Assembly: GCA_951406725.2 (NCBI GenBank)
Contig: OX597828.1
Coordinates: 41,106,001 to 41,170,000, forward strand
Source of the DNA: Octopus vulgaris
Taxonomy: Eukaryota
Direction: 5' to 3'
DNA length: 64,000 nucleotides
Below, in pieces: positions 21,304 to 62,642 of this stretch (its first letter is position 1; each line of letters begins with the position of its first letter). The notes beneath the pieces were generated by a model that was not told the DNA's origin, did no database searches, and saw only the letters and a program-made list of their open reading frames with translations. The position numbers were made by a program, and so were the translations under genes.

Positions 21304-21354
<51 letters not shown>

Positions 21355-25184: not shown

Positions 25185-25581
25185 GATTTCAACTTTGGAT
25201 CGCAGCAGCCGTTACCGAAGAGAAAGGAACGAAAGAGAAAAGAAGAATGAGATGCGCAATGGGACTTCACTTCCGTTTTATGTCTATGCAAATAAACCAG
25301 AGGAAGTGGTTACATAAATATTGTTTACAACGTGTTCGTTTTATTAATTTAGATGTTACATTTCATATTCTGTTTGTCTATTAAGTTTTCATGTATTATA
25401 TGAAAATGGTAACAAACATAGTTTCGTTTCTCCATTGACACTTTCACTCTGTTAAATATAAGGAATCACAGGTTCGACGACGGTCGGAGGATTCCCCTCA
25501 TCAAAAACAAATTTATCTATTTGTTTATTTATGCATTTCATTTTGGGGTGATCTTTCGTTTAAAATTACACTGAATCGGCC

Positions 25582-32646: not shown

Positions 32647-32648
<2 letters not shown>
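31588..32648 (+). mobile_element. RTE-clade LINE 3' end (ORF2 C-terminus, repeat-containing 3' UTR, (GAT)n tail)
   Basis: Encodes RNEASMLRWMCNV...RLRWYGHVARM, then a frameshifted GRGRPRKTW. The UTR ends GGACGTTAAACGATGATGAT. Shorter 3' copies are at ~441-698 (+), 5100-5342 (+), 11449-11870 (-), 12655-12931 (-), 19686-19952 (-), 42995-43367 (+), 53020-53340 (+), 58640-59012 (+) and in both foldback arms. Confidence 0.85.
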
Positions 32649-32678
<30 letters not shown>

Positions 32679-35600: not shown

Positions 35601-35904
35601 TAATTATGTATAAACATTGATTACCTATATAATTATATAAATATTGATTGCGCTTATATATAAACAATGCAATAAAAAACATGTTAGGTGTGTAAACAAT
35701 ATAACAGAAGTTATACATGATTAAAAATATATTAGTTATGTAAAAGACATGTTTAAAAAGAAATCTGCAAAATATCTTAAACAGCTGTGTGGAATTTTGT
35801 TAGTGTCCTCTATTATTGACAGAAGCTGGAGGAACCTTATTGCATATATACACAGCTTCTTTAATGCCCCTGTATATATAGTTCCTATCTTTTAAAAGAC
35901 TTTT

Positions 35905-36307
35905 ATTCTTTATTCTTTTATTCTTTTACATGTTTCAGTCATTTGACTGTGGCCATGCTGGAGCACTGCCTTTAGTTGAGCAAATCGACCCCGGGACTTA
36001 TTCTTTGTAAGCCCAGTACTTATTCTATCGGTCTCTTTTGCCAAACTGCTAAGTGACGGGGATGTAAACACACCAGCATCGGTTGTCAAGCAATGCTAGG
36101 GGTACAAACACAGACACACAAACACATACATACATATACATATATACGACAGGCTTCTTTCAGTTTCCGTCTACCAAATCCACTCACAAGGCATTGGTCG
36201 GCCCGGGGCTATAGCAGAAGACACTTGCCCAAGATGCCACGCAGTGGGACTGAACCCGGAACCATGTGGTTGGTTAGCAAGCTACTTACCACACAGCCAC
36301 TCCTGCA
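35905..36307 (-). mobile_element. tRNA-derived SINE (family 1), young copy
   Basis: Near-identical to the copy at 1697-2100. Confidence 0.85.
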
Positions 36308-38029
36308 CCAACTTGAGAACCTCCAGTTACTGGAAAATACTAGGAGTGAAATTTTTGCTTCATGTCCATATATGACAAAATACCTCTTAGTGAGAATTAA
36401 GGATAAACCACCAGACACATCATAACACATTCCAGTGTTGGCTCATGTAATTGTTGATATTTCCTAAGGCATTAGTTATATTTACTGTTCAGTTAATTAT
36501 CTTCTTTTGATTTCTCTTTGTCTTTTTGTTAATGCATTTGCTCATTCAAACATCGATTGAATCAAATACATACATACAGATAGACAAATGCACGTACAGA
36601 TACTGTTTCTTTTGCTGTCAGGCTTTTTGACATGTCTTGATATATAGGTGCTGACTGTAAAACAAAGGGCATCACCCCCTCTCTCTCTTCCGGAGAGGCA
36701 CTGAGCAGCTTTACGCACATATACACACACGGCAGTAACCTCCGCCTACCGAATTCAATCACAAAGCTTCGGTTGACTCGGGGCTATAGTGGAAGACATC
36801 TGCCCAAAGTGCCACGCAGTGGGACTAAACCCGAAACCATGTAGCTAGGAAGCAAGCTCCCTAACCACACAGCCATGCCCGGCAATCCTTCACAAAAGCT
36901 TCACTGAACTGTTTGTCCAACAGACTCAGGGAATTATAAACTAATTGGACACAAGTCAGGGTTGGCATCAGGAAAGGTATACGACTATAGAAAATCTGCC
37001 TCAGTAAATCCTTATCTGACCTTTATTGTAAAAACATAGAAGTTAAAACGCAGATGGTAATAATGATGATGATAACTAATTTTTTATCTCTAGGTCTGTC
37101 TTTCAGTTGACCATTGTTAGCAGTGCCTCATTTGATAGCAACACAAGGATCTGTAGTGAATGTTTCCAGTATAGACGGTCTAAGAACTGTAAGTCATTTT
37201 CAGAAAAGATTTGTTTTTATAATAACGTTGCTTCCCAAAGCAACTATATAACACTTTTTAGATTTTCCTTCAAGATCAAATTCCAATTTCCATATTAAAA
37301 TTGGAGAAAGTCTATTTTTCTCTTAAATTTTGTAAATTTCAAAGAATTAGTATTTTTATAGCAATGAGTTAATGTTTCTAGCAAAGTCTGTCATGCCACT
37401 TTTACTGTGGGATGTGAGTGAAATTGTAATAGTTTGAAGGAATATTTCAGGATATTGGTATGTAACATAAGGTGTTGAGCTGCCAGAATTGTTAGTACGC
37501 CGGACAAAATGCTGCTAAGCATTTTGTCCATCTTTATGTTCTGGGTTCAAGCATGGAAAAGTAGATGTTGAGAAGATGATGATGTTTCTTGCAAACATTC
37601 CCACTTGTTTTACTTGTGAGTGAAATTGCAATAAGTGCAAGGGTTATCTAGGAAGGGCATCCAGCTGTAAAATCTTCACCAAAACAGGCACAGAAGTCTG
37701 GTGCAGGCTTCTGCCTGTCCAGCTCCTGTCAAACCGTTCCAACCCATGTCAGCATGGAAAGCAGATGTTAAATGATGATGGTGATGATTAATATTGATTT
37801 GGAGCATGAGCACAAGCATTTGCTAGATTAACCTAGTAATAAACACATGCAACAGGCCCTGCATTTTCAGAGCCCACACATTTTCAAGGGCCCTGTGCTA
37901 AATGCCTTATTGTTATAGTCTTTCAATTTTATAGACCTTTGCAGGGTTAGAACTTAGAACAAGGAACAGCCCTGCCACCAACACATTGTCTTTGTTTCAG
38001 GTAAATACTGTTGAGATTGTATATTGAAT

Positions 38030-38375
38030 AGGTTCATGGCTCAGTGGTTAGAGCGTTGAGCTCAGAATCATGAGGTAGAGAGTTTGATTCCCAGACTGGG
38101 CTGTGTGTTGTGTTCTTGAGCAAGACACTTTATTTCACGTTGCTCCAGTTCACTCAGCTGTAGAAATGAGTTGTGACATCACTGGTGCCAAGCTGTATCA
38201 GCCTTTGCCTTTCCCTTGGATAACATCAGTGGCATGGAGAGGAGAGGCTGGTATGCATGTGCGGCAGCTGATCTTCCATAAACAACTTTGCCCAGACTTG
38301 TGCCTCGGAAGGGAACATTCTAGGTTCAGTCCCATGGTCATTCATGACCAAAGGGGTTCTTTACTCTTTACCCTT
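38030..38375 (+). mobile_element. tRNA-derived SINE (second family)
   Basis: TGGCTCAGTGG A box, AGTTTGATTCC B box and TTGTGTTCTTGAGCAAGACACTT core. Relatives at ~148-410 and 728-990. Confidence 0.75.
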
Positions 38376-39635
38376 TTTAGACTTGGAATGGTAGTTTGAT
38401 ACTTTTTATGCTATGATTATACTAAGATTACTTGTAAAGAGTGTATTCTATAATAAATAAATTCTACAATAAGTCTCTTGGTAATGGTAAGACAGTCAGT
38501 CTTACACTGAGAAAGAGCATGAATTTACCTAAGCTGGTTCTCCAAGTATCCATGTTAATTCCTCTTTAGAAACTGCTATAAAAATAGAATAATGTTAGAA
38601 CATTTTAATCTGTCTGTTCAATTCAGTTTATTATTTGTATTTCAGTTTCCTGGAGGTCTTGTTTACAACATGTCTAAAAGTGCTTTGGACCAGTTCACTT
38701 GTACTGTTGCTCTTGGTATGTTGGATTTCGTTTTTCTCCCTTTCAAATGTTTTGCACTTATATTTTTCTCTCAGTTCTGTGTTGTTTAGCCCTTGATCAA
38801 GCAGACCTATGATCAAAAAGGCTCCTGCCGTGACTAATATAACATAACTATGTGTCTCATCTATTTTAAAATGTTGATTTGTGATGATTTGAGGAAGATT
38901 TGACTGTAATTTCTAGCAAATCATGTGACAATATAGAACAGTCATGAGCAACCAATTTTGAGAAGCAGGTTGCATGAAACAGCTTATCATCAGGCAGGCC
39001 ATACTACAAAAAAAATTCAAAGTACATTTCATTGTTGCAGAGGCAGACTGAACCATCGGCCAATCAGGCACTGCCCAAAGGGCCCAGAGCTCTGAGGGGC
39101 TCACACTCTACATGTTAACTCTACTGATATCAATGCTAAGGGGCCCGGTAAACAGTTTTGCCTGAGGACCCTTAATACTCTCAGTCTACCCCTGCATTGA
39201 TGTGACATTCAGAGAGTTCTGCAGATCAGTTTTCAAACCTACACTCAGTCAAATTTTTATTGTCCAGAAACACAACAAGTCTCTTTTGTTCTGAAGTAAC
39301 TAATTACACACCACTTCCATCTAAGTCCAGCCTCACACCCATCTCTCTTTTCGTCATCCCAGCTATGTCTCAAGGCCCTGACCTCTCTGTCCTACATTAG
39401 TTGCATGCAACCTCCAGTTAAGCTCAGTTTACACACCTATCTCCTCTCCTTGCTGTGTCTCAAGGCCTAGACCCTGCACCTTTGTTCCACTGATCCCAAT
39501 CCTTTCTTCCACAGAATATTAATCCCTTGCAATTACAAATACATTTCTTTCAAATTTCCAAGTGTTTAATCAGAATATATCCCTATTGATCTTCCCAGGT
39601 TTGGATCAGTGCATCCTGCCTCCTGCTCTGAATTA

Positions 39636-40604
39636 CAGTGATCCCTCGTTTATCGCAGTAGATTGGTTCTGAGACCGGCCATCCTTCTCTCTCTTTTGGA
39701 GAGGCACTGAGCAGCTATACACACACGGCAGTAACTTCCACCTACCGAATTCAATCACAAAGCTCCGGTCGGCTCAGGGCTATAGTGGAAGACACCTACC
39801 CAAAGTGCCACGCAGTGGGACTGAACCCAAAACTATGTAGCTAGGAAGCAAGCTCCCTAACCACACAGCCATGCCCAATAACTGAATTTCTGCGAAGTAG
39901 GGACACCATATTTACAGTATTTATTTAACGTGTATTTGGACTTTTAAAACCCTCCCTGTACTGTTAACAACCCACCCATTACAGTAATGTATTAATAACA
40001 AGGACAACTGTTAAGCAATAACACTTTAGATTTTAAAAAATAAAGATTGCTACTGTACTCAACACGAAGTTGAAGTAAAATTTGAATGATGGTGATGAAT
40101 TTGCTGCGCAGTAGAAATGATGATGATGAAGCTGATGGCAGTGCCCTTTCCTGGGACATCTCTTCCGAAGGTACAACCGTAGTTGTAGCAGCAGGAACTG
40201 GCTCTTTTTTGCAAGACTGCAAAAACATTGTGATAGGAAGTTGCTGCCGCTGCTTCTTTTTCCGTTCAAATTGCATCTTGTAGGGATTCATGACTTGCAC
40301 AGAATGAACCATATCGTCGTCCCATTCCTGTGACCCCTCTTTCAATTCTTTAGCCAGGTTGCTGAGCTTGGCCAGCTGTTCCAAAGTCAAGCTAGTTTGG
40401 TCAACAACTTCTTCGTTTATTGCTGCATTTCTTCTTCTTCGCTGGCTGACTTTGTCATGTCTTCGAGGTCTGTGTCGGTTAGCGGCTGGGAGTGGCAGTC
40501 TAATAAAGCATCGATGTCTCTAGGTGTTCATACATATATATTTTTAAAATCCACCAAGTTGTGAATCCGTGATAGTTGAACCGCGAAGTAGTGAGGGATC
40601 ACAG
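39636..40604 (-). mobile_element. Tigger/pogo-like deletion derivative with a nested SINE
   Basis: TA|CAGTGATCCCTC ... GAGGGATCACAG|TA. Transposase C-terminal remnants HSQPLTDTDLEDM and KKKQRQQLPITMF. SINE head at ~39680-39876. Confidence 0.75.
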
Positions 40605-43600
40605 TAAGCCATTACAAAACAAAAATTCAGCAAATATGTTATTAGTCACATCAAACAGGCTGTACATTGCTGTCAAACATTGTATATTTTGTTTACTTGA
40701 GAAGAATTACTGAAGTTACTCCATGAAAACAATTATTGTTTTATCTGAATATTCCATGATATACTTAGAATTTTTCACCTTATTCCATGTCTTCCAGAGT
40801 TGGCACCAAAGAAAGTGCGTGTAAACAGTGTCAAGTAAGTCTCATATCTTCACACTAGTCCTGTTAATGTTCAGATATTTATAGCATTATGTAGAATAAG
40901 TAATCATTGTGCCATTATGTAAATGAGTTGTGTTATGTATAATGTTGCTTACATTTTAATAAGTAACCTTTGATACTATCTTTTGGTATTTATGAAGGGA
41001 AACCAGATGAGTCGCTATGTTGAAACTATTCAATTTAATCATTCCTCTAATCTTCCACACAACATTATGGTCTAACCATAGAGCCCAGTTGTACAGCAAG
41101 AATATATGTTTATTAAATATCAATATGCTTTTGTATACATATTTACTTTTAACATATTATTTTCAGTTAGTCAAGTTAAGAGTGAAAATTGTGTATGTGG
41201 AAAGCATTAAAAACGTTAATTAGTAATAAATGTAGTAATGAAAAGAAAAGACAATGATAGTAGTCGCTGATTATTATTGTAATTAGTTCAGTCAGTATGA
41301 GAAACAACTCTTGACATGCTTAAGCCTTATTATGACCTCATCAGTGAAATATAGACTTCACTGTACTTGTTGAAATTGTAGATTTACTCCAAAATGATAG
41401 AACAATCGCAAGAGTGTACTTTGGATAACATGGTAAAATAGACTTGTTTAGCGAATATATTACTTAGAACAACCATCTGCATAAAAAAACTGTAGTTAAT
41501 GTTAAAATATATTTTATTATCTTCACTCTTGACAATTGTTCTTGTATCTTTGGCAGGAATTGTTGGGTGGTATATCATGAAACATCTGTCTTGTGTTCTG
41601 TCCCATTGCGGGAACTAAATAGGATACTGCTTCATTCTAAAACACTTACTTGCTATCGTATCTATCAACTTGGTACCAATTCATAAACAGTGTTGTCTTA
41701 AATAATTACAGGTTAATCCTCGTTATCTGAGATACTCACAAATATTTTTTTGATGATAGGATTTGAACCCTTGATCTTTCTGTTAGTGAACCAATCCCCA
41801 AATAACTTGGCTTCCAGTGACTCTCCAGTGAAGTTTATTGTTCTCAGATCAACTGATATCAGTCTTAGGTCAACCCTGATTAAGTAAACCCATGAACAAA
41901 GGCTCTCTAGCCATGACCATCCACTAAATTTCAGATAAAGTTTATATCACCTTACACTATCCAATATGTTCGTCTCCCTTTTTTTTAAAGGTAGTATTAC
42001 ATGATTTGAGAGATTTGGTTGCTATTTCTGGAAAGGTAAAGGACTATGTAGATCCTCTCTCATAAGTTTGAAGGTTTCTGAAATCATAATGATAATGTGT
42101 GCCATAACCCATTGGGTCAAAGTGGCACAACTGAAAACTTCATTTTTATCTAGAGTATATCACGAACAAGTTAAATTTACCTAGCTCTGTTGTTCTCTGC
42201 TAGGATCCATAAGACCCCTGGGTGTCTGTATGAACCCTGGGTATCTGTAATAGCCCTGGATGTCCAGGTAAGATTTAGTCAGGTGTTAAAATTCATGTGC
42301 AAAAATTGCTTATATTTCCATAATACTCAAAATATTTTAACATTTTTTAAATACATTTTCTAATAATACCTAATTATACTAATACAATAGAATTTTTCAA
42401 ACATTGAATGGCTGTGGAGGGCCACCTGAGTGAAATACATATCAAAGGGGTTAAAAAATGGTTGAGGAATACCGAACTAGCTCATGACCCTCAAAATTAT
42501 AAACCTACAGGTACTGAACTCAGCACGGCAACCTAATGAAACATATACTACTGTCACTGTTAATTACAGCTCCTAACCATGCGATCTATTTCAGCTTTGT
42601 GGAGTGAGCCAACTAGAGTTAAACACGTTGCTGTGCTGATATGCTATAAAACCCTTAGCTATTCACTTGGTCAAGTTGACCATCTGTGACTTTCATAATG
42701 ATATTAATACAGATTATATCTTGCAACCCTCAGCTAAGTTGTTTGTGCTTCTACATGTTATTCCAGTCCTGGGGTTATTGTTACTGACCTACAGAAGAGA
42801 GGAGGCATGAGTGAAGAAGTTTACACTCAGGTAAAGTTAATCATTTCTTGTTTGCTCGAGTTTACTCTTGTATCAACTGGACTATTGAAGACAGTAAGTT
42901 CAAATATTTTTACCTGTGTTTATTACTCTAAATAACTTTTGTTTTTAAAAATTCTTTTAAGTAAGTTATTTAGACAGACAGTTGTATACAGAAGTGCTGA
43001 TCACTTAAAGATGATGGAATTTATGGGAGAGGGAGACCCAGGAAGACACGGAACGAAGTATTGAAGGCTGATCTCAAGATATTGAACCTTGCAAAGGAGA
43101 TGACTAAGGACCGGGGTATCTGGTGCCTTATTGTACTCAAGAAGACTTGTCCACCACAGCAGTATTGATACTGGTGCAGGTGCCACATTAGAAGCATGCA
43201 GTATATTCTATGGAGTGGTTGGCATTAGGAAGGGCATCCAGCTGTAGAAACCATGCCAGAAAAGACAATGGAGGCTGGCGTAGTCCCTGGCCTTACTAGC
43301 TCTGGGTCAAACCGTTCCAACCCATGCCAGCATGGAAAACAGACGTTAAATGATGATGACGATGATGTGTCTCAGCTCTATTCAATATAATTTACTGGGT
43401 GAGCTGCTCCTCATACAACTCTTGAAAATCAGTTATGCAACCCAAAGCATAAATACATTTACTTTCATAGATACAGAGAGGTAACAGTTTAAAAATATTG
43501 TTTGGTTATCATCAACATTGCATTGATTAGATAACTGTTTGTGTTTGTCACATACCTGCGTGTCTGTGTATTGGCTAAATAATTGTGTGCATGTTGTTTG

Positions 43601-46206: not shown

Positions 46207-46918
46207 AATAATAATAATGAAATTATTGTATACAGTGCTCAGGTGCACCACAACTTGTCAAAAGTATGTATAAAGCATATGCAGTAATGTACAAATGTCT
46301 GGGAAGTGAACAGTGTATGAGTCAGATACATGCTTGCGTGTGTATGGAGGGGAGAAAATCAGGTGTAGTGTTGGCGAATCTCAGGAAGCATGGAAGTTTT
46401 GAAGGATGCAGTGCTCCGACAACTAACAACTGATGCCGGCAGTTTGTTCCGTGCTTCAGCAACTCTCAGCGTGACTGATGCTGGCAGTTTGTTCCATGCT
46501 TCAGCAACTCTTAGCGTGACTGATGCTGGCAGTTTGTTCCATGCTTCAGCAACTCTTAGCGTGACTGATGCTGGCAGTTTGTTCCATGTTTCAGCAACTC
46601 TTAGCGTGACTGATGCTGGCAGTTTGTTCCATGTTTCAGCAACTCTTAGCGTGACTGATGCTGGCAGTTTGTTCCATGCTTCAGCAACTCTTAGCGTGAC
46701 TGATGCTGGCAGTTTGTTCCATGTTTCAGCAACTCTTAGCGTGACTGATGCTGGCAGTTTGTTCCATGTTTCAGCAACTCTTAGCGTGACTGATGCTGGC
46801 AGTTTGTTCCATGTTTCAGCAACTCTTAGCGTGACTGATGCTGGCAGTTTGTTCCATGCTTCAGCAACTCTTAGCGTGGCTGATGCCGGCAGTTTGTTCC
46901 ATGCTTCAGCAACTCTTG
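46207..46918 (-). mobile_element. CR1 LINE 3' fragment ending in an 11-copy 45-bp tandem array
   Basis: Same 3' UTR and tail as the copies at 10116 and 59563. Unit ACTGATGCTGGCAGTTTGTTCCATGCTTCAGCAACTCTTAGCGTG repeats at 46429-46918. Confidence 0.85.
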
Positions 46919-47326: not shown

Positions 47327-50300
47327 ATGGACTTGATTAATTTAAGTGGAAAAGTTGCTTTAATTAGCGGTGAGCGATGAGGGAAAATTTCCTCTATTTA
47401 TTATTTTCTTTTTCTTTTCGTTGTTATGAAGAAACGAACAAACACACAACAAAGTATAAAAACTAATTCAACAGTCGCATCTCTCCCTCAAATATCATAC
47501 GAGATAACGAAGAAAAACTACGTAGTTGTTCGCCCTGCTAGAAATAGCAGCCAAATTTCAATTTAATTCAAATCTTACTCTGTTAAAGAAGAAATTATAT
47601 ATAAAGGATAACCTAAGTTTTATCAAATTAGTTTACGAAATTGCATGTTAACCTGATAAACTAGTCGAATGTATACGTAAATAACATAAAACCGGTAAAG
47701 ATTTGCAAGAATTAAATGTTAGTTCTCCGGCAGTTTTCTTTTATGTAAATAAATGGGTACTTGTCTATTGTCGTGGTCCCGGTTTCGCACACGCGAATTC
47801 GCGCGCGCGCGCGCACCAGACGTAGGTACTCGATACTCGAGATCCTACGAGGTGACTTGCGCATGCGCAGTGCAGAATTCGCGCATGCGCGTTACCCCCC
47901 CCCCTAAAAAAAAAGGTGTTGGATTTCACTAAAAATATATATGTGTGTGTGTGTGTGTATATATAACATTTTCAATTTTACACAAAAAAATTACATAGTC
48001 GCTTTCCTCGCGGATTTACAGATAAATGAATTAATTACTATTTTACAGAATAAAATTAATGAATTAATTATATAAATTAAATAATTCTTGAAAATTAATT
48101 AATATTAATAATATTTTTTGAACAAAGTAAATAATTTATAAAACTTGGTTAATAATTTTTTTTACACAAACGCGAACGTATATAATTTGTGAAACTTTTT
48201 TTTTTTTACAGACGTATATAATTTGGTAAACTTAATGAATTAATTTCTTCTCATCATCATCATCGTTTAACGTCCGTTCTCCATGCCAGCATGGGTTGGA
48301 CGGTTCGACCGGGGATCTGGGAAGCCAGAAGGCTGCACCAGACTCCAGTCTTATCTGGCAATGTTTCTACAGCTGGATGCCCTTCCTAACGCCAACCACT
48401 CCGAGAGTGTAGTGGGTGCTTTTTACATGCCACCCGCACAGGTGCCAGGAGAGGCTGGCAACGGCCACGGTCGGATTGGTGCCAGTCGAGGCGGCTCTGG
48501 CATCGGCCACGATTCGGATAGTACTTTTTACGTACCACCAGTCCAGGGGTCCTGGCATTTGCCGGGTGCCACACTTGCCCCAACATGTCTTCGCGAGCAA
48601 AGGGGGTTGGCGTGGGTGCCTGTCGTGGGATGAGGTTCGATATCAACTTCGCTTGCCTCAACAGGTCTTTGTGTATAAATGTATAAATTTTTCGCACTAA
48701 ATTCTTTCCGTAGAATTTATCAAAAAACGCGCAAAATTATTCCGTAGAATTTATCAAATTAAAAAACGCAAAATTAATATATTTTTTGAAATTGCAAATT
48801 ATTTAGAATATAAAACAAATGAAGTTAAATTTTTAAAATAAATGTCATATACTTATACTCTGTAAGGTGCTGTGTTCACACTTCAATTTACTATTTTCTA
48901 GAAATGTTGCTTTTCTAATTGAAACAATTTTTCTCAATCTCCATTTAAAAGTCCATAATGCCTCTTGAGCCATATCAAAATGAACAACTTTGAATTACGC
49001 GGCGGCGGTGGTGGTGGTGGTGGTGTGAGGTTCTAATTTTTTTTCCGATCTCTCTTTGCCCCCTCTTTATCTCAGTTGTTCATTCCGCTAATAATTAGAA
49101 AAATTTTCGCGCCCAATTTTTGTTGTCGCGGGAAAAGATGAACGATTTAAAATAAATATATCTTAATTGTAGTGTGAGAAAGTATATATATTCTGATGAC
49201 AAAATATATTATCTTTCAAAAACATCCCAAATTTATAGACTATATCGTGTAGGTTTAAGAAATATATATATATATAAGAGAATGAAACATCTTTCATCTG
49301 TCTCCCCACCACACCTCCATCTAGGGGGGCAAAGAGAGATCAGAAAAAAATTAGAACCTCACACCACCACCACCACCACCGCCGCGTAATTCAAAGTTGT
49401 TCATTTTGATATGGCTCAAGAGGCATTATGGACTTTTAAATGGGGATTGAGAAAAATTGTTTCAATTAGAAAAGCAACATTTCTAGAAAATAGTAAATTG
49501 AAGTGTGAACACAGCACCTTACAGAGTATAAGTATATGACATTTATTTTAAAAATTTAACTTCATTTGTTTTATATTCTAAATAATTTGCAATTTCAAAA
49601 AATATATTAATTTTGCGTTTTTTAATTTGATAAATTCTACGGAATAATTTTGCGCGTTTTTTGATAAATTCTACGGAAAGAATTTAGTGCGAAAAATTTA
49701 TACATTTATACACAAAGACCTGTTGAGGCAAGCGAAGTTGATATCGAACCTCATCCCACGACAGGCACCCACGCCAACCCCCTTTGCTCGCGAAGACATG
49801 TTGGGGCAAGTGTGGCACCCGGCAAATGCCAGGACCCCTGGACTGGTGGTACGTAAAAAGTACTATCCGAATCGTGGCCGATGCCAGAGCCGCCTCGACT
49901 GGCACCAATCCGACCGTGGCCGTTGCCAGCCTCTCCTGGCACCTGTGCGGGTGGCATGTAAAAAGCACCCACTACACTCTCGGAGTGGTTGGCGTTAGGA
50001 AGGGCATCCAGCTGTAGAAACATTGCCAGATAAGACTGGAGTCTGGTGCAGCCTTCTGGCTTCCCAGATCCCCGGTCGAACCGTCCAACCCATGCTGGCA
50101 TGGAGAACGGACGTTAAACGATGATGATGATGAGAAGAAATTAATTCATTAAGTTTACCAAATTATATACGTCTGTAAAAAAAAAAAAGTTTCACAAATT
50201 ATATACGTTCGCGTTTGTGTAAAAAAAATTATTAACCAAGTTTTATAAATTATTTACTTTGTTCAAAAAATATTATTAATATTAATTAATTTTCAAGAAT

Positions 50301-52790
50301 TATTTAATTTATATAATTAATTCATTAATTTTATTCTGTAAAATAGTAATTAATTCATTTATCTGTAAATCCGCGAGGAAAGCGACTATGTAATTTTTTT
50401 GTGTAAAATTGAAAATGTTATATATACACACACACACACATATATATTTTTAGTGAAATCCAACACCTTTTTTTTTAGGGGGGGGTTAACGCGCATGCGC
50501 GAATTCTGCACTGCGCATGCGCAAGTCACCTCGCAGGATCTCGAGTATCGAGTGCCTATGTCTGGTGCGCGCGCGCGCGCGAATTCGCGTGTGCGAAACC
50601 GGGACCACGACAATAGACAAGTACCAATAAATGTTTATGTCAATTAAAAAATTTGTCAGCAAAATCTTACAAAATGACAAAGTTCTAAAAGACGTACATG
50701 TTTCTGTTATATATGAAAATAAAAGTTTTTTACTCGTCAATTAATTCTAAAAGAAAAGAAAGGTATTATAAGTGACTATTATGATTAATGAAACCGAGTT
50801 ATGATTTTATGGTATATTTTATAAACATTAAACAGAGCACACCTTTGTATTTTTATAAACATTCAGAGGTTGCCGATGTGTAGCGTAGGAGGCCTGTAAT
50901 TATTATGACTAATTAGTGTGATTTAATTACCGTGTTTTATAATGTATTTCATAAACAATAGAAGTCTATACTTGAAAAGTTTTGAGGACTTGCGGGGTGA
51001 GTCTAGCATGTTTATAAGTGGTCCCTTCCGTTTTATAAAGGAATCGTTGTTTGCATATATATATTCTACAAGTAACTTTTGTTTATTTATTTATACACTT
51101 GTAAGATAAACGGAGATAATAAACTACACGAAACTAGTTTAAGGAGATGGTGAAAACGTTCAGAAGTGTTAACTTGTTTTTAAAGATATGAGCAACTGCA
51201 AATTTATGGTCCACCCGGGGTGACAGAGGCTGTGTGTGTGTGTGAGCACGCGTGTATATATATGTATTATTGAAAATTTAGATAGTTTAATAATTGCGTA
51301 TATAACACGTAGGTATATGATACAGGTGATATAATACTAAACCACATTAAAATACAAACCCAATTTGGGTTGAAACCTTGTAGCTTGCTTTAGAAAGGCG
51401 AACAGATTCAATTATTCGGTGAGAACCGATCGTATGGGTGAACATACGTCTGGAAATCTCTGAATATCTGTAGAGTATTTTCATTTATTCTTTTACTTAT
51501 TTCAGTCAGTTGACTGCGGCCATGCTGGAGCACAGTCTTTAAGAGTTTTTTAGTCGAAGAATTCGCCCCCAGGATTTATTCTGTCGGTGGTTTTTTGCCG
51601 AACCTCTAATTTACGGGGACGTAAGCACACCAATATCGGTTGTCAAGCGATGGTTGGGGTGGACACGAACATACACACAAAGACATATACACGTAAATGT
51701 ATATACAGGAGTTGGACAAAATTTCAAACAAGTTTAATTTAATATGGGGCCTTTGGCAGTAATTGCAGCTTGAATTCTACTAGGGGTATGGACTCGTATA
51801 AAGTTTGAATTGTTTCCAAAGGAATTTTTGTCCATTCTTCAGCTAAAACAGTCTCCAGTGGTGGCCAGATAAGACGTTCAACTTCACTAGAATGTTCCTC
51901 GTGCCATTCAGTAACAATTTTAGCTGTGTGAATTGGTGCATTATCATCCTGAAAGGTTGCGATTCCCTCTGGAAACAGTTCTGCAACCATAGTATGAATT
52001 TGATCAGATAAAATGCTTAAATAGTCTTGACTATTAATTCTGCCATGAAGGAAAACCACTGGGACGGCGGATTTCCAAGATACAGCCCCGCCCACCTGAT
52101 CATTACAGATCCTCCTCCATGTTTAACAGTTGGAAGAAGATAGTCTGGGTCAAATGCTTCTTTTGGCTGTCTCCACATGTATACTCAGCCAGTGGTAGGA
52201 AATAAGGTAAAGGATGACTCGTCCGAGAAAATAACATTCTTCCACTGCTCTAGGAACCAATTCTGTAGGTTTTTACTCCACTCTAAATGCTTTGCAACGT
52301 TTGTTTTTGAAAGTAGTGGTTTTCTGATTGCAGCCCTCCCATGAAATCTGGATTTGTGCAGCTCCCAGCGAACAGTTTTTGTGGAAACTGGGTTTTTGAG
52401 ATGGTCATTAAACTCTGCAGTAATTTTGAGAGTTGTACAATTTGCATAAGAGTTCCGGAGTATTGTTTTGACAAGGAGGTTTTTCCTTCTTTCTCAAAGG
52501 CTGTCATTACTTTCGAGACGTTACCAAACATTTTGGCTGTTTTCATTATGCTAGCGCCTGTCGTACAAGCACCAACAATTTGAGCTCTTTGAAAGTCCGA
52601 TAGATCTGTCATTTTAATGAGTTTTAATTACCTTTTTCTGATGATATCTGAAAAGCAACAGCAATTTTAGCAAAACATATTAAGCAACACTAATAATAAA
52701 TCAAAATATATAAAAATAAACAAGCTTTTGATTATTTTATAGATATTTCAAAATTATGATGCTAGGTGTTTCCATTATTTTGTCCAAACC

Positions 52791-52827
<37 letters not shown>

Positions 52828-54301
52828 TATGTGTGTGTGTGTACGATGGGCTTCTTTCAGTTTCCATCCACCAAATCCAGTCAGAAGGTTTTGGTTGCAC
52901 CCAAGGCTATAGTAGAAGACACTTACTCAAGGTGCCACACAGTGTGACTAAATAAAATATTTTGTAGTATAATACAATAAAGTGTATTGCTCAATCCATT
53001 CTCTCCAGTGCTGACCTCTAATTGTGGAGGGAACCTGTGGAAGAGGTAGACCCAGGAAGACATGGGATGACATAGTGAAGCATGATCTTTAAATGTTGCG
53101 TCTCACAGAAGCGATGACAAGTGATCGAGATCTTTAGAGATTTGCTGTCCTTGAGAAGACTTGTCAAACCAAGTGAAATTGTAGTTGTGGCTGCTGCCGA
53201 TGTCACGTAAAAGCACTTGTGCCAGTAACATGTAAAAAGCACCCACTACACTCTTGGAATGGTTGGCATTAGGAAGGGCATCCAGCTGTAGAAACCAAGC
53301 CAAAATCAGACCGGAATCTGGTACAGCTCCCTGGCTTACTATCATCATTATCTTCATTACCATCATCTTCATCATCATCCAAAGTTCACTCCAAGTGTGC
53401 TATCCGTTGCTCTACAGTCTCACATGTCTGCTCTGATGTGCTGTTTGCCGCTGACTGGCCCCCTCGTGCTTTGCTGATGCCGCATGTCCACCGCGGCACT
53501 TCCGGTGGGATCCACAGGCCCCACTTCCGACAGGACATGCCTACTCCCTCACTTCTGATCCTTCCCTACAACACAGCCTGGCTCATAACACCACAGCTAT
53601 GATTAGCATGCTGTATAATCAAAGTAGTAAGGTGAGAAGAAAGAATTATCTTCATCAACGTTCATTGGTAACATTAAACATTTATGCATACATGCATACA
53701 AAAATACCCTGTTGTTGATGTTGAAATTCCAATGAAGGAGCCTTGGATCTAGGTTAGAAACCAGTCCTTTCTCTATTGGCATGTAATCTTGAAATAAACT
53801 GTATCATTACATACAAACATATATATGAGAGAGAGAGAGAGAGAGAGCTAATAATGAGGGATTATCAACCTGGGCAAAATACTTCATAAGGTCTCTGCTG
53901 AGACACCAGGCTAACAATATTGCTTAGATTAGTGAAGGACTCCAGGTATTGTTATGGTAGGGTCCAAGGCTATGGTTCATCACAATTCTATATTGAAAAT
54001 CCATGGATGGGCTCCAGACAAACTGGTTTTTACGCAGAGTGATATATATAAGACAAGTTATAAATAATGGTCATTACATATTTTTCTTTTATTAGAGCAA
54101 ATTTGACTTACAGCTGTTTCGAGTAGTCATTATAAGTATGTTACTGATAGGTTTACTCAATTGTGATCAATAGACTGATTGAGTAAACCTATGAGTACGT
54201 ACCTATAATGATCACTGGAAACAACTGTAAGCCAAATTTACTCTAATAAAGGAAGAATATGTAATTATCATTATTTATAGCTTGTCATATATATATGTAT
54301 G

Positions 54302-54360
<59 letters not shown>

Positions 54361-54717
54361 GTATATGTATATATATGTGTATATGTATATATATGTGTAT
54401 ATGTATATATATGTGTATATGTATACATATGTGTATAAGTATACATATGTGTATATGTATATATATGTATATATATATATGTATGTATATATATATATCT
54501 ATATGTATATATATATATATATATATCTATATATATATGTATACATATGTGTATATGTATATATATATATATGTATACATATGTGTATATGTATATATAT
54601 ATATGTATACATATGTGTATATGTATATATATATATATATGTATACATATGTGTATATGTATATATATATATATGTATACATATGTGTATATGTATATAT
54701 ATATATATATATATATC

Positions 54718-54758
<41 letters not shown>

Positions 54759-56117
54759 ATATATATATGTATATATGTATATATATATATGTATATATAT
54801 GTATGTGTATGTATGTATTTATATATGTATGTATTTATATATGTATGTATGTATGTATTTATATATGTATGTATGTATGTATTTATATATGTATGTAAGT
54901 ATGTATGTATGGTATTGTATTGTATTGTATTGTTAATGTATTGTATTGTATATTCATATGGTACACGTGTGGATTAGAAATATTGAAACCGTCAAAAGAT
55001 GATGGTTGAGAGGTTTCTTATACATGTAAGCCATAACAAGAATAGTCTCTACAATGAGCTGAATTCCAGAACTTTTATAAATACACTCAAAAGTTCTATA
55101 ACATTCCATAAAATCTTTAGGCATGGAAATTAAACTTCTTTCTGTCTGTCAATGCTTATCAAAAACTGGTGTGAACAATGACTGACTGGAAAAAATGTCA
55201 GTAGGTGTTATAATAGAGTTTAGAGATACAGCGAAAAATTAACCCTAGTTAATATTACCAAATACAGTAATATTAATTGCTAGTGGCTATTATCACTGAT
55301 CAACATTATCAAATACGATAATATTGTTCACCAGCTGGTATGGCTTTGAAATTTAGTCTTTACATGTTTGGATTTGGAGAAGACTATCCTGCTACAGTGC
55401 ATCAAATAGTGTGTCAATGTATTAATATGTGTGTGAAATGTAACTCTTTGACTATGAGTATAACATAGTTTAATGTATTATTTCTTTGTTCAGGTGCCAG
55501 TTCCGGTATTGGTGCCGGTACTGCAGTGTTGTTTAGTAAACTTGGTGCAAAGTTGGCTATTACTGGCAGGAAAGAAGACAACTTGAAGAAAACTGCAGAT
55601 GAATGTGAAAAAAATGGTTCTAAGGTAAAGCAGTCACATACGTAGATGCATGTAGGTGTGCAAGCCTGACTTCTGCATGCATATGATTATGCAGATAGAT
55701 ACACTGATACGTTTGTTGTTGTTTTAGTGATATTAAAATCCTAACACAGTACACCACCATGTTAATGTATAGTCTGATTACACACATACATACATACATA
55801 CACATACACTCATACACATACATGCATATGTAGGTAAAAAGAAATACAAACTTGGACCAAAGATTTTGTTTCTTCTCAATATTGTTTCAATCTGTTGAGG
55901 AATATCTTCATCACAAGGCCATCAGCATATACATACATGCACACATATAAACATACATGTATATATATATATGTATATATAAATATCATAATGGCTACCT
56001 CTGATGAGTGCAGGGTTACATAATCGGACTGGTACCTAACACTCTGTTGAACCCCTAGTGCGAAACCAATTGGTAAGATTAGCTGTAATGTATATATAAT
56101 ATGGTACACTTTGATTA

Positions 56118-56160
<43 letters not shown>

Positions 56161-59100
56161 CACATCATATGTATAGACCCACTCAGTCTGATACTATCAT
56201 TGTTGTTCATCTAAGTCAATACTTCTAGGGTAAAATGTAGCTTGTGGGATTTTAACAGAATAGAGTTCTGGGGAGGGAGGGACGAGTTTCCATTAGACTG
56301 AATAGGATTAAGCTAAGGTTAAAATAATTTCCAACAAAATTCATTCATGATATACAACTGATTTAGTCCACCCTAATAGTTGGTTGGTACTTTATTTAAT
56401 GCAGCCCACACCACCACTGCAAGGTGTAGTAAATGACTTCTGTGTGATATGTGCATATATGACAATATATTACAAGGCAAAATGCCTGCCACTCTACTTA
56501 TTAAGCATTCATTGCCTTTCAGTGTTTCTATTCCTGCCTTCCTGGGACTAAACAACTGTTTTTGTTAACCTATGAAAATGAAATTTTTAATACAGACTCA
56601 AACCCCAATAAATGTTAGGGTTCCCCATCTGTGGTCTGTTTAAATTGATGCTATTTAATGAAAACTATTTCTTATTTCAGCCATTAATCGTTGTGGCTGA
56701 CCTTTCAAAGGAAGATGATGTCAAAACTATTATGGAGAAAACCATTTCTCATTTTGGAAAACTAAACATTTTGGTAAATATATTTGTTTCTTAAATCTGC
56801 TGCAATTTCTAGTGTTCCTCGTTTTCACTCCTTATCTTTAACCCTTTCTATACCAACTCACCTGAGACAACTTCTGGTTTTAATTTAGCCCCTTTTATTT
56901 TAAAATATTCACATATAAATTCAAAACTTCCATCCCCAAATTATTGCCTTTTCCTTGTCCCATTTTCCTCATGCCTTATATCCACATTCATCCCTTATAT
57001 TATTAGACAACCCTACTCCCAACTCTGTACGCAACCCACCCTCTCACTTTTTCAGCTTTATCCCTCCCATTTTTTCTTAACCCTGTCACTAATCCCTTCT
57101 TTGTCCCCCATTCCCTGCCACACTCTCTTCTCTTACTTATCACCCCTCATCTCTCCACCTAAAATCATTACCTACTCTCTCTTCTGTACTCCCAAAGTTA
57201 TAGGGGTCAATTTAGGCCCTTAGCCTTGCAAATTATAAGGTAGTCTTCACTCATGCTGATACCATGGAAGAAAGCACCCGGTACATTCTGTAAAGTGATT
57301 GTCATTGGGAAAGACATCCAGCTAAAAAACTGGAGCATGATGTCGTCTTCTGATTGGTCAGCCCCTTTCAAACTATGCCAGCTTGGCAGCCAGACGCTAA
57401 ATGATGATGATGATGATGATGTTCCAGACACCATTTTAATTAATGATAAAATTTTACCTAATCCTTCTAAATTGCTTAAATTTAATTATCAATATTTTGT
57501 TTTCTATTTGTTTCAAAATGAATTTAAATATAGACTGTCTCATTAGAAATATGATTCTGAAAGGATAAACTAACATTACCTTAACTATTTTACCATTTTC
57601 TTGGTGCCATTATTTTGTCCTTACAACCCTTATTTTCCTCCACCATTCTTTGCCTCCACATAATGCCTTATTTCTTGTAGATCTACTTTAGAAACCATAT
57701 TTTTCTTTTGTTTTGCATCAACAGGTGAACTGTGCCGGAATTTTAGCATATGGGAATATTGAAACCACAAGCTTGGAACAGTTTGATGAAATCTTTAACG
57801 TTAATCTGCGGTATGAAATTTTTAATTAGAAGTTAATCATTACAGGTACAGGTGTGGCTGTTTGGTATGAAGCTCCTCTTACTTATCATCCCTTGTCTCT
57901 CCACCTAAAGGCGGTGAGCTGGCAGAAATGTTAGCAGACTGGGCGAAATGCTTAGCGGTATTATTATTTAAGTACCTGATTCTCTCAAGAATCATCATTA
58001 TTATTATATACTAGCAGTATTGTCTGGCGTTGCTCGGGTTTGTAAGGGAAATAACTATATAAGAATTTTTAGAGAGTTACTTCCCTTATATAAAACCGAG
58101 CGAAAAATGGATTAAAAATGGGGAAAAATGATGGTAAATTTTTTTTTAAATCATAAACTCATCGTAGACGTGCGCTAATACCCAGAAGGGCTCAATATGA
58201 ATCACGACTATAAGATACCCGCTTTTAGTTAAACTGCACCGCAAAATGTGGGAGTAGTTAGGAATCTAAATCGGAGTAGACAGACACACACACAACTACA
58301 GTTTTATATATAAAGATATGCACACACACACATATATAAAGTGTATGTGTGTGTGTGTGTATTTGCATGCAACTGAATGTGCATTCTCTTGATGTGTGTA
58401 CACTGATTATAAAGAAAGCCTCACTGTCCATATAAAGGTGTCATTCGTTGGGAGTCCACCATGAAAACATGTCCTTGGTATGTTTGTGCTGATTGTAAAA
58501 TGAAGAGTGTTACTGTTTACATAAGTAGTAACACACTTTGTTGTCTGTCCTCCTGCAAAACCATATCTGAACTGTTTGTTGTTCAACAAACTCAAGGAAT
58601 TATTACTTTGCTTACAAACAGGTAAAAAATTTGCATCAGGAATGTGGCCGATGCCAGCGCCGAAGTCAGCGCCGCCCCGACTGGCTTCTATGCTGGTGAC
58701 ACATAAAAAGCACCATTCGAATGTGGCCGATGCCAGCGCCGCCTTGGCTGGCTTCCGTGCCGGTGGCACGTTAAAAGCTCCAACCAATCGTGGCTGATGC
58801 CAGACCCCCCTGGCACCTGTGCAGGTGGCACGTAAAAAGCACCCACTACACTCGCGGAGCGGTTGGCGTTAGGAAGGGCATCCAGCTGTAGAAACTCTGC
58901 CAGATCAGATTGGAGCCTGGTGCAGCCTTCTGGCTTCCCAGACCCCGGTCGAACCGTCCAACCCATGCTAGCATGGAAAACGGACGTTAAACGATGATGA
59001 TAATGATGATGAATGGCATCAAACTGTAGAATGTCTGCCTTAGCAAAGTCTTACTTCATCCATGCAAGAATCAAAAAAGTAGATGTTAAAACAATGATGG

Positions 59101-62100
59101 TTATAATGATGCTGATGCTGGCTAAATTTCTTCCTCTAGGTCTGTTTATCAGTTGACCATGTTAGCGGTGCCTCATTTGATAACAACCCAAGGATGTATA
59201 GTGAATGTCTCCAGTATATGTGCCCTAAGAGCTGTAAGTCATTTCCAGAATATTTTTTTTTTTTAACTTTTATAATGGTATTGTTTAGAAAAACGATTGT
59301 ATAATACTGTTTAGATTTTCCTTCAAGATTAAATCCCAATTTCCATTTGGGAAAATGGAGAAAGCTTATGTTTCTCTTGAATTATGTAAATTTCAGAAAA
59401 TTACTAAGTCAGAGTGTGAAAGACTGGAAAAATTATTATTTCCTTGCTTGGAAACAGGTAAGGGTTAGCATCAGGAATAACATTCAACTGCAGAAAAATC
59501 TGCCTCAGTAAAACCTGATCTGACATATGCAAGCATGGGAAAGTAGTTTTTGAGATAACAATATAATAATAACGAAATTATTGTATACAGTGCTCAGGTG
59601 CACCAAAACTTGTCAGAAAGTGCATATAAAGTACATGCAGTAATATAGAAATGTCTGGAAAGCGAACAATGTATGAGTCAGATACATGCTTGTGTGTGTA
59701 TGGAGGGGAGAAAATCAAGTGTAGTGTTGGCGAATCTCAGGAAGCATGGAAGTTTTGAAGGATGCAGTGCTCCGACAACTAACAACCGATGCTGGCAGTT
59801 TGTTCCATGCTTCAGCAACTCTCAGCGTGAAAAAATGTTTCCTGAAGTCATGGGAGCTGTGCTGTTTTCTTACTTTGTAAATATGTCTACGGGTGTTAGA
59901 TGGGTGGAGTTTGAAAAGGTGCTCAGAGTTATTGTTTGATGATGATGATGATGATGATGATGTCTCTTGCAAAATCTATAATCCCATTCATACTACTTGT
60001 GAGTGAAACTACAATAAGAGCAAGGGCTATATTAGGATAAAAGCATTTATTTGTATCGTCAAGGCAAGCAATGCTAAATCAGCCCAGTAACAAGAGTGTG
60101 TTACAGGCCCTGTATTTTCAGAGCTTATGCATTTTCAAAGGCTCTGTACTAAATTCCTCCTTATCCTAGTCTTTAACTTTTATGAATTACTGAATGTTTT
60201 AATCTTTTAGTATTCAGATTTCTAAGTCAAATGTAATGCTTATTTACTCACATTATTTTGAATTAATCATGCATTATCTTGTAGCTTCAAGATATTGATA
60301 ATATGATTGTATATTTTTAGAATGGCATTGTAAGATAGGTGTGAGGGGCTGGATCTGGCTTGTTTGAATATAGAACAGGGGAAATATCTTGACCAGATTT
60401 GGCCAATTTTAATGCTAAGGGATTAAGGTTCATTCACAACTCAAAATAATTGAGCTTATCTTCCTTATAAGATCAGATGAATGAAATAAATTTGTTATAA
60501 ACACCACTGTAACAGCAATTGTTAGGATATGTGTTGGAGGTTGGCCTGTTACCAATTGTAACAGGTGTTGGTGTTGCAGATGTGCAAGATGAAAGAAGAA
60601 CAGTGTTCGAGGTTGTAAACAAATATTTATTTACCTTTACATATTGTTATAGCCAAACCACGATGGGTTGATATGTATAACTCGTAAAATATGCAAGGTA
60701 AAGAGAGATATCTCTTTTACTCTTTTCAGTCATTTGACTGTGGCCATGCTGGAGCACCGCCTTTAGTCGAGTACTTATTCTATCGGTCTCTTTTGCTGAA
60801 CTGTTAAGTTACACTGATGTAAACATACCAGCATCGGTTGTCAAGCGATGTTGGTGGTGGGGGGGGGGGCAAACACAGACACAAACATATACACACACAC
60901 ACACATATATATGTATATATATACATACATGTATATGACGGGCTTCTTTCAGTTTCCGCCTACCAAATCCACTCACAAGGCTTTGGTTGGCCCGAGGCTA
61001 TAGTAGAAGACACTTGCCCAAGGTGTCACGCAGTGGGACTAAACCTGGAACCATGTGGTTGGTAAACAAGCTACTTACCACACAGTCACTCCTACGCCTA
61101 TAGATTTTCCTTGTATAGGTGTGTTCGTCTTCTTGTCATTGTGTAGTAGTAAACCACAGATACCGATAGGGTAATGTTGTAGAGAAGAGAAAGTGAAGCT
61201 AGTGCAAGTGAGAGTGATGGGACGAAACAACTGCTTCGCTGGTGGGCTACCATAGTTGTCCCTCTGTGCCTTTTTATTTGATGATGGTGTTTCGTTTGGC
61301 TGATCAGCCAGACTTGGTTCTCATTAACTGACTTTGGCTTATGGAGTTCTTGTATTTATAACTATACAAAACTAGTTAGGAAAACAGATATACTGCAAAG
61401 ACAATGGATATACTTTGTGGGGATCGACTGTTATCTCAATTCCATTCTCCACTGCATACAAGAGGTTAGAAGGGTCAGGTGGCAAAGACATAAATCAGTT
61501 TAGCGAAGCCACGTGTTAAATGTAACTGTTATCACTATTGTTTCTCTGTGAGAAAACTGCTGTTGAAATATTATGGGAAATTTGCCAATTCAGGTTCGAA
61601 TCTACTCTGTGCATAAATGAAGTCACTGCAATACTGTAATGTTAAGCATCCTTCTAATATCAAATTGAGATTTTTACGTGGGTAAGGAACATTTTTATTG
61701 CATACAGGTCTTGGAGGTAAATTATCAATGTTTAGGTAAAAATAATTGTAGAAACATTGTCTTAATTTCAATTACTCTGCACTCTCCATTTTAGCTGATC
61801 TATATAGACTGGTTCTTCAAATAAGCATCTGGGTCCATAGAAATAATTATAATTTTGAACTTTGGTAGAACATACATCTAGTAACCCACAGGTGACTGGC
61901 TTGTATCTTCCATGTGAATTTATGACAAATTCTTCCTATTCAATTCAGTTTACCATTTGTATTTCAGTTCCCTGGAGTTCTAGCATACAATATGTCTAAA
62001 AGTGCTTTGGATCAATTCACCTGTACTGTAGCTCTTGGTATGTTGATTTTTATCCTCATTTCTTTCAAATATTTTTCTCTTTTCTTTTCAGTTCTGTGTT

Positions 62101-62642
62101 GTTTTGACCCTGGTCAAGCAGGCCTATGATTAAGTGTTCAGTTCTGTGTTGTTTTGAGCCTGGTCAAGCAGGCCTATGATTAAGTGTTCAGTTCTGTGTT
62201 GTTTTGAGCCTGGTCAAGCAGGCCTATGATTAAATGTTCAGTTCTGTGTTATTTTGAGCCTGGTTAAGTAGGCCTATGATTAAGTGTTCAGTTCTGTGTT
62301 GTTTTGAGCCTGATCAAGCAGGCCTATGATTAAATGTTCAGTTCTGTGTTATTTTGAGCCTGGTCAAGCAGGCCTATGATTAAGTGTTCAGTTCTGTGTT
62401 GTTTTGAGCCTGGTCAAGCAGGCCTATGATTAAGTGTTCAGTTCTGTGTTGTTTTGAGCCTAGTCAAGCAGGCCTATGATTAAATGCTCAGTTCTGTGTT
62501 GTTTTGACCCTGGTCAAACAGGCCTGTGATTAAGTGTTCCAGCCATTGTTGTATCTTGTTATTTTATGATGTGCTGAGTATTTTCCATCTTTCTCTGTTT
62601 TGCAGAGTTGGCATCGAAGAAAGTGCGTGTAAACAGTGTCAA
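47327..62642 (+). CDS. SDR-C: third SDR paralog, exons 1-7; exons 8-9 expected beyond the window
   Basis: Exons 47327-47369, 55494-55624, 56681-56773, 57725-57810, 59140-59233, 61968-62037, 62606-62642. Lengths and phases match SDR-A and the frame is open: [21 protein letters not shown]...VNCAG...[21 protein letters not shown]...[12 protein letters not shown]. Confidence 0.92.
47756..50625. mobile_element. Foldback-type non-autonomous DNA transposon, probably Merlin/IS1595 superfamily, with ~1.3-kb inverted arms
   Basis: Arms ~47756-49064 and ~49323-50625 are near-perfect reverse complements around a ~260-bp spacer. Termini are GGTACTTGTC...GACAAGTACC. The direct repeat AATAAATG flanks both ends (47748-47755, 50626-50633). 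A peptide remnant [17 protein letters not shown] is present in both arms. Confidence 0.85.
51706..52793 (-). mobile_element. Degraded Tc1-like transposon nested in a SINE microsatellite
   Basis: TA-flanked TIRs CAGGAGTTGGACAAA / TTTGTCCAAACCCTG. Peptides [34 protein letters not shown] and WPP. SINE halves lie at ~51490-51700 and ~52840-52950. Confidence 0.88.
54286..54950. repeat. (TA)n/(TATG)n compound microsatellite
   Basis: Direct inspection. Confidence 0.95.
55991..56086 (+). ncRNA. Candidate type I hammerhead ribozyme of the Penelope-associated minimal type, probably degenerate
   Basis: CTGATGA at 56001, an imperfect stem II closed by G56008-C56061, GAAA at 56062, palindromic stem III ACCAATTGGT, GUA triplet ending at 56075, and an imperfect stem I (ATGGCTACCT / AGATTAGCTGT). 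Confidence 0.5.
58011..58316 (-). mobile_element. Non-autonomous Helitron
   Basis: Minus strand reads A|TCTTTATATATA...CCCGAGCAACGCCAGAC (degenerate subterminal hairpin)...CTAG|T. AT target site, no TSD. Confidence 0.75.
59563..59937 (-). mobile_element. CR1 LINE 3' fragment
   Basis: [28 protein letters not shown] plus the same 3' UTR and tail as the other copies. Confidence 0.8.
62087..62540. repeat. 50-bp minisatellite x9 in SDR-C intron 6
   Basis: Reverse complement of the 13626-14075 unit, with an exact period of 50. Confidence 0.95.

What the first reader, a model, noticed from the sequence alone, without database searches (positions are those of the whole stretch)
49390..49540. Transposase remnant in both arms suggests the foldback arose by inverted duplication of one end
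Seen: the right arm on the + strand reads [31 protein letters not shown] ([13 protein letters not shown] at 49462-49500). It is mirrored on the minus strand of the left arm (~48884-48975), where it reads [12 protein letters not shown]. Known, from recall: Merlin/IS1595 transposases carry W-R-C..C-R-K-x-x-S-I-R-x-G-T-F-F-E-x-S-K-L after the zinc ribbon. Inference: the arms include former coding sequence, so both long 'TIRs' are copies of the same end of the parent, produced by template switching or abortive gap repair. This would capture how foldback elements originate.
Basis: partly seen in the sequence, partly recalled or inferred. Interest (0 to 1): 0.7.

Follow-up and report, generated by a model that had tools for sequence, protein, structure and literature searches.

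The report
Octopus Merlin transposon with mirrored halves
A broken 2.9-kb jumping gene, likely from an octopus, has two 1.3-kb mirror-image arms that both carry the same scrap of its transposase gene and the same retroelement scar, so one half was likely copied onto the other end, a process already described for the fly transposon Galileo.

Summary
The element is 47756-50625 (2,870 bp): GG...CC ends, perfect 8-bp target duplication, arms of about 1.3 kb, 261-bp spacer. Database and HMM searches found nothing. A published Merlin protein set did: 49450-49509 matches Octopus Merlin transposases at 18 of 20 residues, and 49412-49441 matches an upstream block in another frame (compared by eye). The four-cysteine segment between them and the DDE domain are missing. 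The remnant reads outward in both arms, so both interiors have the parent's 3'-half orientation. Both arms also carry the same 424-bp LINE tail with 0 differences. Arm-to-arm copying is therefore well supported. The exact pathway, and whether the outer tips are copies too, is untested: no parent DNA was available. Differences cluster at the arm ends (8 in 253 bp versus 1 in 1,055 bp), which suggests later conversion or assembly polishing. Galileo copy 147 in Drosophila willistoni already shows transposase and foreign TE in both TIRs. This is a Merlin case of a known process.

The parts
47748..47755 (.). left copy of 8-bp target-site duplication AATAAATG
   Evidence: chance of an exact 8-mer about 5e-5
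47756..49063 (-). left arm (1,308 bp), starts GG; inverted copy of the right arm
47756..47943 (+). outer, largely GC-rich tip of the left arm; 3 substitutions and 2 indels against the right tip; possibly the native 5' TIR (inferred)
48251..48674 (-). 5'-truncated LINE 3' tail (RTE-type, label recalled), left copy
   Evidence: 0 of 424 differences to the right copy
48875..48934 (-). transposase remnant block B, left copy
48943..48972 (-). transposase remnant block A, left copy
49064..49324 (.). 261-bp non-repeated spacer; likely parental sequence upstream of the ORF (inferred from codon count)
49325..50625 (+). right arm (1,301 bp), ends CC; reads remnant, AT-rich DNA, LINE tail, AT-rich DNA, GC-rich tip
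49412..49441 (+). block A: about residues 29-37 of a 301-aa Octopus Merlin transposase, with one extra codon
   Evidence: all 6 of 6 occurrences of its first five residues in the Merlin set are Octopus proteins
49450..49509 (+). block B: about residues 70-89 of the same family; 8 nt replace the 32 codons between A and B, which hold four cysteines
   Evidence: 18 of 20 identical by eye
49710..50133 (+). LINE 3' tail ending in GAT repeats, right copy; no target duplication found
50626..50633 (.). right copy of 8-bp target-site duplication
47327..47369 (+). host context: predicted first coding exon of a short-chain dehydrogenase gene; the element lies in its intron 1 (47370-55493)

Best explanation
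This is a non-autonomous Merlin-type DNA transposon whose two 1.3-kb arms share the same transposase scrap and LINE tail, likely because break repair copied the 3' half of an already deleted element onto its other end, and later arm-to-arm conversion likely kept the middle identical. Inferred order: (1) an Octopus Merlin copy lost its four-cysteine segment and everything from about residue 90, including the DDE domain; (2) a break in the 5' part was repaired by pairing the short native TIR with the opposite TIR and copying inward for about 1.1-1.3 kb, to near the expected start codon, before rejoining at the spacer; (3) the LINE tail entered before the copy, or entered one arm and was converted across; (4) the intact GG...CC tips would let a transposase in trans move the whole hairpin. 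Shown: anatomy, target duplication, remnant identity and orientation, shared insertion. Inferred: steps 1-4 and their order.
For: GG...CC ends and an exact 8-bp duplication fit the Merlin definition (PMC8101967). The remnant matches Octopus Merlin proteins in two blocks in the right order and reads toward the tip in both arms. Both arms share the same internal deletion and frameshift. The LINE tail is 0 of 424 different between arms, while 23 alignments elsewhere in the window are 69-97% identical. Both copies share 5 positions, of 288 columns covered by at least 4 paralog bases, that depart from the paralog majority, and a 27-nt gap against the longest paralog. Counting 28 codons back from block A puts the expected start codon near 49328, next to the inner arm boundary at 49325 (hand count). 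Differences are uneven: 8 events in 253 bp at the ends versus 1 in 1,055 bp in the middle, Fisher p = 1e-5, or p = 0.006 for substitutions alone (zones drawn after seeing the data; longest-run permutation p = 2.5e-5 and 8e-4). All 5 substitutions are transitions. The same products and model are published for Galileo.
Against: No parent DNA, sister copy or empty site could be examined: the tip occurs only twice in the window, and the paralogous intron stops aligning at 47603, before the insertion. The match to Merlin rests on a by-eye comparison with a paper supplement; all 6 tool searches were blank. A test for the transposase's own C-terminus just after block B was not convincing: 206 of 3,000 random and 83 of 3,000 shuffled 40-mers scored as well, and other places in the arm scored higher. 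So '3' half' rests on orientation alone. A single recent copying event does not explain the 3 differences in the inner 65 bp. Differences confined near unique sequence are also what short-read polishing could leave. That the tips and the remnant come from the same Merlin family is assumed.
Confidence: 0.65

Rival explanations
1. The whole arm, tip included, was duplicated in one snap-back or aberrant sister-chromatid transposition event. The hairpin then transposed here as a unit, and conversion later homogenised the middle.
For: The outer and inner ends have similar substitution levels (3 of 188 and 1 of 65 bp), as one older event would give. Recently active Merlin insertions in O. vulgaris average 2,636 bp (28,998 bp / 11), compatible with a mobile family of about this size.
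Against: It needs a further transposition to explain the matched target duplication. The species of the window and the structure of those 11 insertions are unknown. The counts are tiny.
Confidence: 0.17
2. Two separate copies of one deleted, LINE-carrying Merlin family inserted back to back, lost their inner 5' ends and later moved as a composite.
For: It also gives two outward-reading 3' halves with a shared LINE tail, with no templated repair needed.
Against: It predicts even divergence along the arms, which is rejected unless conversion is added. It needs local insertion, deletion and re-transposition. No single-half copy lies in the window.
Confidence: 0.08
3. The long inverted repeat, or its near-perfect middle, is an assembly product (fold-back chimeric reads or polishing that made two repeats identical).
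For: 8 of 9 difference events lie within about 190 bp of unique sequence. 0 of 4 slippage-prone tracts in the middle differ versus 4 of 7 at the ends (p = 0.19, not significant).
Against: The repeat stops exactly at GG/CC with an 8-bp duplication and unrelated flanks. The host exons on either side are in the order of the paralog. Polishing could level bases but not plausibly add a kilobase. It could still account for the flat middle alone.
Confidence: 0.06
4. The long arms were inherited unchanged from an autonomous parent that already had kilobase TIRs.
For: Merlin-1_DR and Merlin-N5_DR are listed with 1,000-bp TIRs. A near-complete Galileo has 69 bp of ORF inside its TIRs.
Against: The arms hold a frameshifted, doubly deleted N-terminal piece and a LINE tail, so any such parent would itself be a product of the same copying.
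Confidence: 0.04

Closest known systems
Galileo copy 147 and relatives, Drosophila willistoni (PMC4168063; passages and section 10 read)
   Same: TIRs of about 1.6 kb that contain transposase coding sequence and a piece of another TE in both arms, with identical target duplications.
   Different: P superfamily. The recruited ORF piece is the final part, at least 545 bp; here it is a short, internally deleted N-terminal piece. The authors called ORF recruitment unique to Galileo as of 2014.
Galileo 2RT copies, Drosophila mojavensis (PMC3573991; abstract, sections 7 and 10 read)
   Same: TIRs lengthened to 1.1-1.26 kb by recruiting internal sequence from one end; double-strand-break repair on the opposite TIR is the proposed mechanism.
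   Different: The recruited F1 and F2 regions are non-coding. There, 170 copies trace the series; here there is one copy.
Octopus Merlin transposase family (XP_029646117.1, XP_029633801.1, XP_029648038.1, KOF67805.1 in S1 Appendix of PMC8101967; passages seen)
   Same: Two colinear N-terminal blocks, 9 of 9 plus one extra codon and 18 of 20 identical by eye.
   Different: Only about 30 of 301 residues remain; no cysteine segment and no DDE domain. TIR sequences of these loci were not available.
Repbase Merlin-1_DR and Merlin-N5_DR, zebrafish (table in PMC8101967 supplement)
   Same: Merlin elements listed with 1,000-bp TIRs.
   Different: The table says nothing on coding remnants in the TIRs or on their origin; sequences not seen.
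Made1 MITE (PMC1784062; search listing only)
   Same: Non-autonomous element that is almost all inverted repeat.
   Different: Short Tc1/mariner-type MITE (recalled); no coding marker considered here.

Membership tests
Merlin superfamily (non-autonomous derivative) | TIRs starting 5'-GG | tested here: met
   47756 GG and 50624-50625 CC; definition from PMC8101967
Merlin superfamily (non-autonomous derivative) | 8- or 9-bp target-site duplication | tested here: met
   exact 8 bp at 47748-47755 and 50626-50633; no empty site available
Merlin superfamily (non-autonomous derivative) | sequence similarity to a Merlin transposase | tested here: met
   two blocks match Octopus members of a published Merlin set, by eye (chance estimate); Pfam, NCBIfam and database searches blank
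Merlin superfamily (autonomous element) | DDE_Tnp_IS1595 catalytic domain | tested here: not met
   0 hits for 4 DDE-region motifs in six frames of the window; no long ORF in the element other than antisense LINE-tail frames
Merlin superfamily | TIR length 24-462 bp as first described | tested here: not met
   arms about 1.3 kb; but two Repbase Merlins are listed at 1,000 bp, so length is not a strict criterion
Merlin superfamily | TIR sequence shared with an autonomous family member | not testable with these tools
   no eukaryotic genome or Repbase collection; tip motif absent from the supplements searched (which left files 5-8 unsearched)
Foldback-type element (structural class) | long TIRs making up most of the element around a short loop | tested here: met
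   about 91% of 2,870 bp is arm
Foldback-type element (structural class) | internal tandem repeats in the TIRs (recalled for Drosophila FB; stated for Galileo) | tested here: not met
   0 of 53 Tandem Repeats Finder rows fall in the element; only microsatellite tracts
Foldback-type element (structural class) | dispersed copies showing movement as a unit | not testable with these tools
   one copy in 64 kb
RTE-type LINE (the 424-bp insert) | 3' tail continuous with a LINE ORF end | tested here: inconclusive
   the paralog at about 31600-32644 continues upstream into a frameshifted ORF end whose motifs I recall as RTE-type; no library hit was sought for it

The most novel reading that the evidence does not exclude
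This hairpin is a member of a young, still-mobile Octopus Merlin foldback family (the roughly 2.6-kb 'recently active' Merlin insertions of O. vulgaris), born by copying the parent's 3' half and kept palindromic by continuing arm-to-arm conversion. It would extend transposase-in-TIR recruitment beyond Galileo and scatter 1.3-kb perfect RNA hairpins into introns of a heavily RNA-editing animal.
Probability: 0.25. Interest if true: 0.5.

Novelty: new member of a known kind. Interest (0 to 1): 0.3.

Why it matters
It gives a clean, two-marker example (coding orientation plus a shared retro-insertion) that long foldback arms are secondary products of copying within an element, in a superfamily other than P/Galileo. 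I found no paper describing this for Merlin in three searches of the held library, which lacks most subscription journals and Repbase reports. If sister copies exist, their end-versus-middle differences would let one date duplication and conversion separately. The element sits in a predicted intron, so its transcript would form a long double-stranded RNA; any effect on the host gene is untested. It does not overturn a model: it fits the one already proposed for Galileo.

Tried and rejected
Searches with the 49-aa peptide: Pfam and NCBIfam, 0 families for 2 of 2 proteins. The 20-aa block-A frame also gave 0 Pfam families. The word-index search of longer proteins found no candidate; phmmer over 1.84 billion representatives, 0 at E up to 0.001; ESM Atlas, no usable hit; plasmid tblastn, none. 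These blanks likely reflect a 20-residue signal and possibly absent cephalopod proteins, and are weak evidence either way. Other Merlin pieces in the window: none. Other copies of the tip: none beyond the 2 arms. A C-terminal remnant after block B, joined by microhomology: not significant, dropped. Empty site in the paralogous intron: alignment ends at 47603. Target duplication around the LINE tail: none of 6 bp or more. Homology between spacer and arms: only the 24-bp inner arm ends. An Octopus consensus in supplements: not found (4 files of the second paper were not searched; the O. vulgaris library is on Zenodo, out of reach). A by-eye resemblance of the spacer's right edge to the transposase N-terminus was not tested and is not used. 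Literature search for the 'same end' MITE origin gave 0 papers and 2 marginal ones.

Full report
Observation. The longest inverted repeat in the window is a pair of arms around 49200. A global alignment extends them to 47756-49063 and 49325-50625, with a 261-bp spacer. The element is 2,870 bp, begins GG, ends CC and is flanked by an exact 8-bp duplication, about 5e-5 by chance.

Is it transposase? All six tool searches with the 49-aa peptide were blank. I then searched S1 Appendix of PMC8101967, a 1.43-million-character set of Merlin-related proteins, for short motifs of the window's translation. One five-residue motif occurred 9 times and another 6 times, and all 9 and all 6 places are Octopus proteins. 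By eye, 49450-49509 is 18 of 20 identical to XP_029648038.1, residues about 70-89 of a 301-aa family. A rough chance expectation is 2e-9 (assumed background frequencies). In a different frame, 49412-49441 matches residues about 29-37 at 9 of 9 with one extra codon. Only 8 nt separate the blocks where the family has 32 codons with four cysteines. Four DDE-region motifs have no match in the window. So the remnant is real, doubly deleted and frameshifted. The host is likely an octopus, inferred from these matches.

What the arms say. In both arms the remnant reads from the centre toward the tip, the orientation of the parent's 3' half. The expected start codon (28 codons before block A, about 49328, hand count) lies beside the inner arm boundary (49325), so the spacer is likely upstream parental sequence. 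A test for the transposase's C-terminus after block B was not convincing (206 of 3,000 random and 83 of 3,000 shuffled 40-mers scored as well), so the 3' assignment rests on orientation. A second marker is a 424-bp LINE tail at the same site in both arms, with 0 differences. Elsewhere in the window 23 alignments of it are 69-97% identical. Both copies share 5 private positions among 288 comparable columns and a 27-nt gap against the longest paralog. That paralog runs upstream into an ORF end that I recall as RTE-type. Two independent insertions at one site are implausible, so sequence was copied between arms.

Uneven divergence. There are 9 difference events: 5 in the outer 188 bp, 1 in the middle 1,055 bp and 3 in the inner 65 bp. 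Fisher p is 1e-5 for all events and 0.006 for substitutions, with zones drawn after the fact; a longest-run permutation gives 2.5e-5 and 8e-4. At the rate of 0.0036 per site per Myr quoted in PMC13282606, the ends date to about 2.2 Myr (0.6-5.6) and the middle to about 0.13 Myr (0.003-0.73). This fits an older duplication with later conversion, or a retained native tip. It could also come from short-read polishing, which I could not exclude.

Mechanism. Most likely a deleted Merlin copy was broken in its 5' part, paired its short native TIR with the opposite one, copied inward to about the start of the ORF and rejoined; conversion then kept the arms alike. The anatomy, remnant and shared insertion are shown; the pathway and order are inferred. 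Whole-end duplication followed by transposition is the main rival. O. vulgaris has 11 recently active Merlin insertions in 2 families averaging 2,636 bp, which would fit a mobile family of this size, but their structure and the window's species are unknown. The tip occurs only twice in the window and no empty site was alignable.

Context. The element lies in predicted intron 1 (47370-55493) of a short-chain dehydrogenase gene, one of three start exons in a cluster. A pre-mRNA would carry a 1.3-kb hairpin; no effect was tested.

What is known. [quoted passage not shown] PMC3573991 (abstract, sections 7 and 10) describes TIR lengthening in Galileo by recruiting internal sequence and proposes break repair on the opposite TIR. 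PMC4168063 (passages, section 10) describes copy 147, with over 500 bp of transposase and another TE in both TIRs, and calls ORF recruitment unique to Galileo. PMC13282606 was read in parts 1-2 of 3 with a supplement search. PMC9115989 was used only for a partial supplement search, with no hit. Searches for a Merlin or octopus case showed none among the listings, in a library that lacks most subscription journals.

Verdict. This is a non-autonomous Merlin derivative of foldback shape, a new member of a known kind, with modest novelty as a Merlin case of a trait reported for Galileo. Interest 0.3.

Noticed in passing
window 13293-25190 (-), 29754-40815 (+), 47327-62873 (+): Cluster of three short-chain dehydrogenase gene copies with matching exons. 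The long inverted matches 13293-14247 / 61915-62873, which include a 50-bp tandem array, fall inside two oppositely oriented paralogs and are not transposon arms.
   Followed up: partly
window 47370-55493: The foldback sits about 385 bp into predicted intron 1 of one dehydrogenase copy, so its transcript would form a 1.3-kb near-perfect double-stranded RNA.
   Followed up: partly
window 26408-28348 (+): 646-codon open frame with a reverse transcriptase domain (Pfam RVT_1, E 6e-36): a LINE fragment.
   Followed up: partly
window 31600-32644 (+): Longer copy of the LINE tail found in the arms, with a frameshifted ORF end and a 123-bp internal tandem repeat.
   Followed up: partly
window 51739-52122 (-): Likely Tc1/mariner-type transposase remnant (label recalled; Pfam DDE_3, E 0.006, below the curated cut-off) in the same intron.
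   Followed up: partly
window 46429-46917: 45-bp tandem array of 10.9 copies, 97% matches, open in both directions.
   Followed up: no
window 47800-47892 and mirror 50490-50595: The GC-rich tip holds several short palindromes and a (CG)7 tract; possible transposase-binding or structural motifs, untested.
   Followed up: no
window 49074-49084 and 49395-49405: An 11-bp direct repeat shared by the spacer's left edge and the arm just upstream of block A (seen by eye); about chance level, but could be a template-switch scar.
   Followed up: no
PMC8101967 S1 Appendix: [quoted passage not shown]
   Followed up: no
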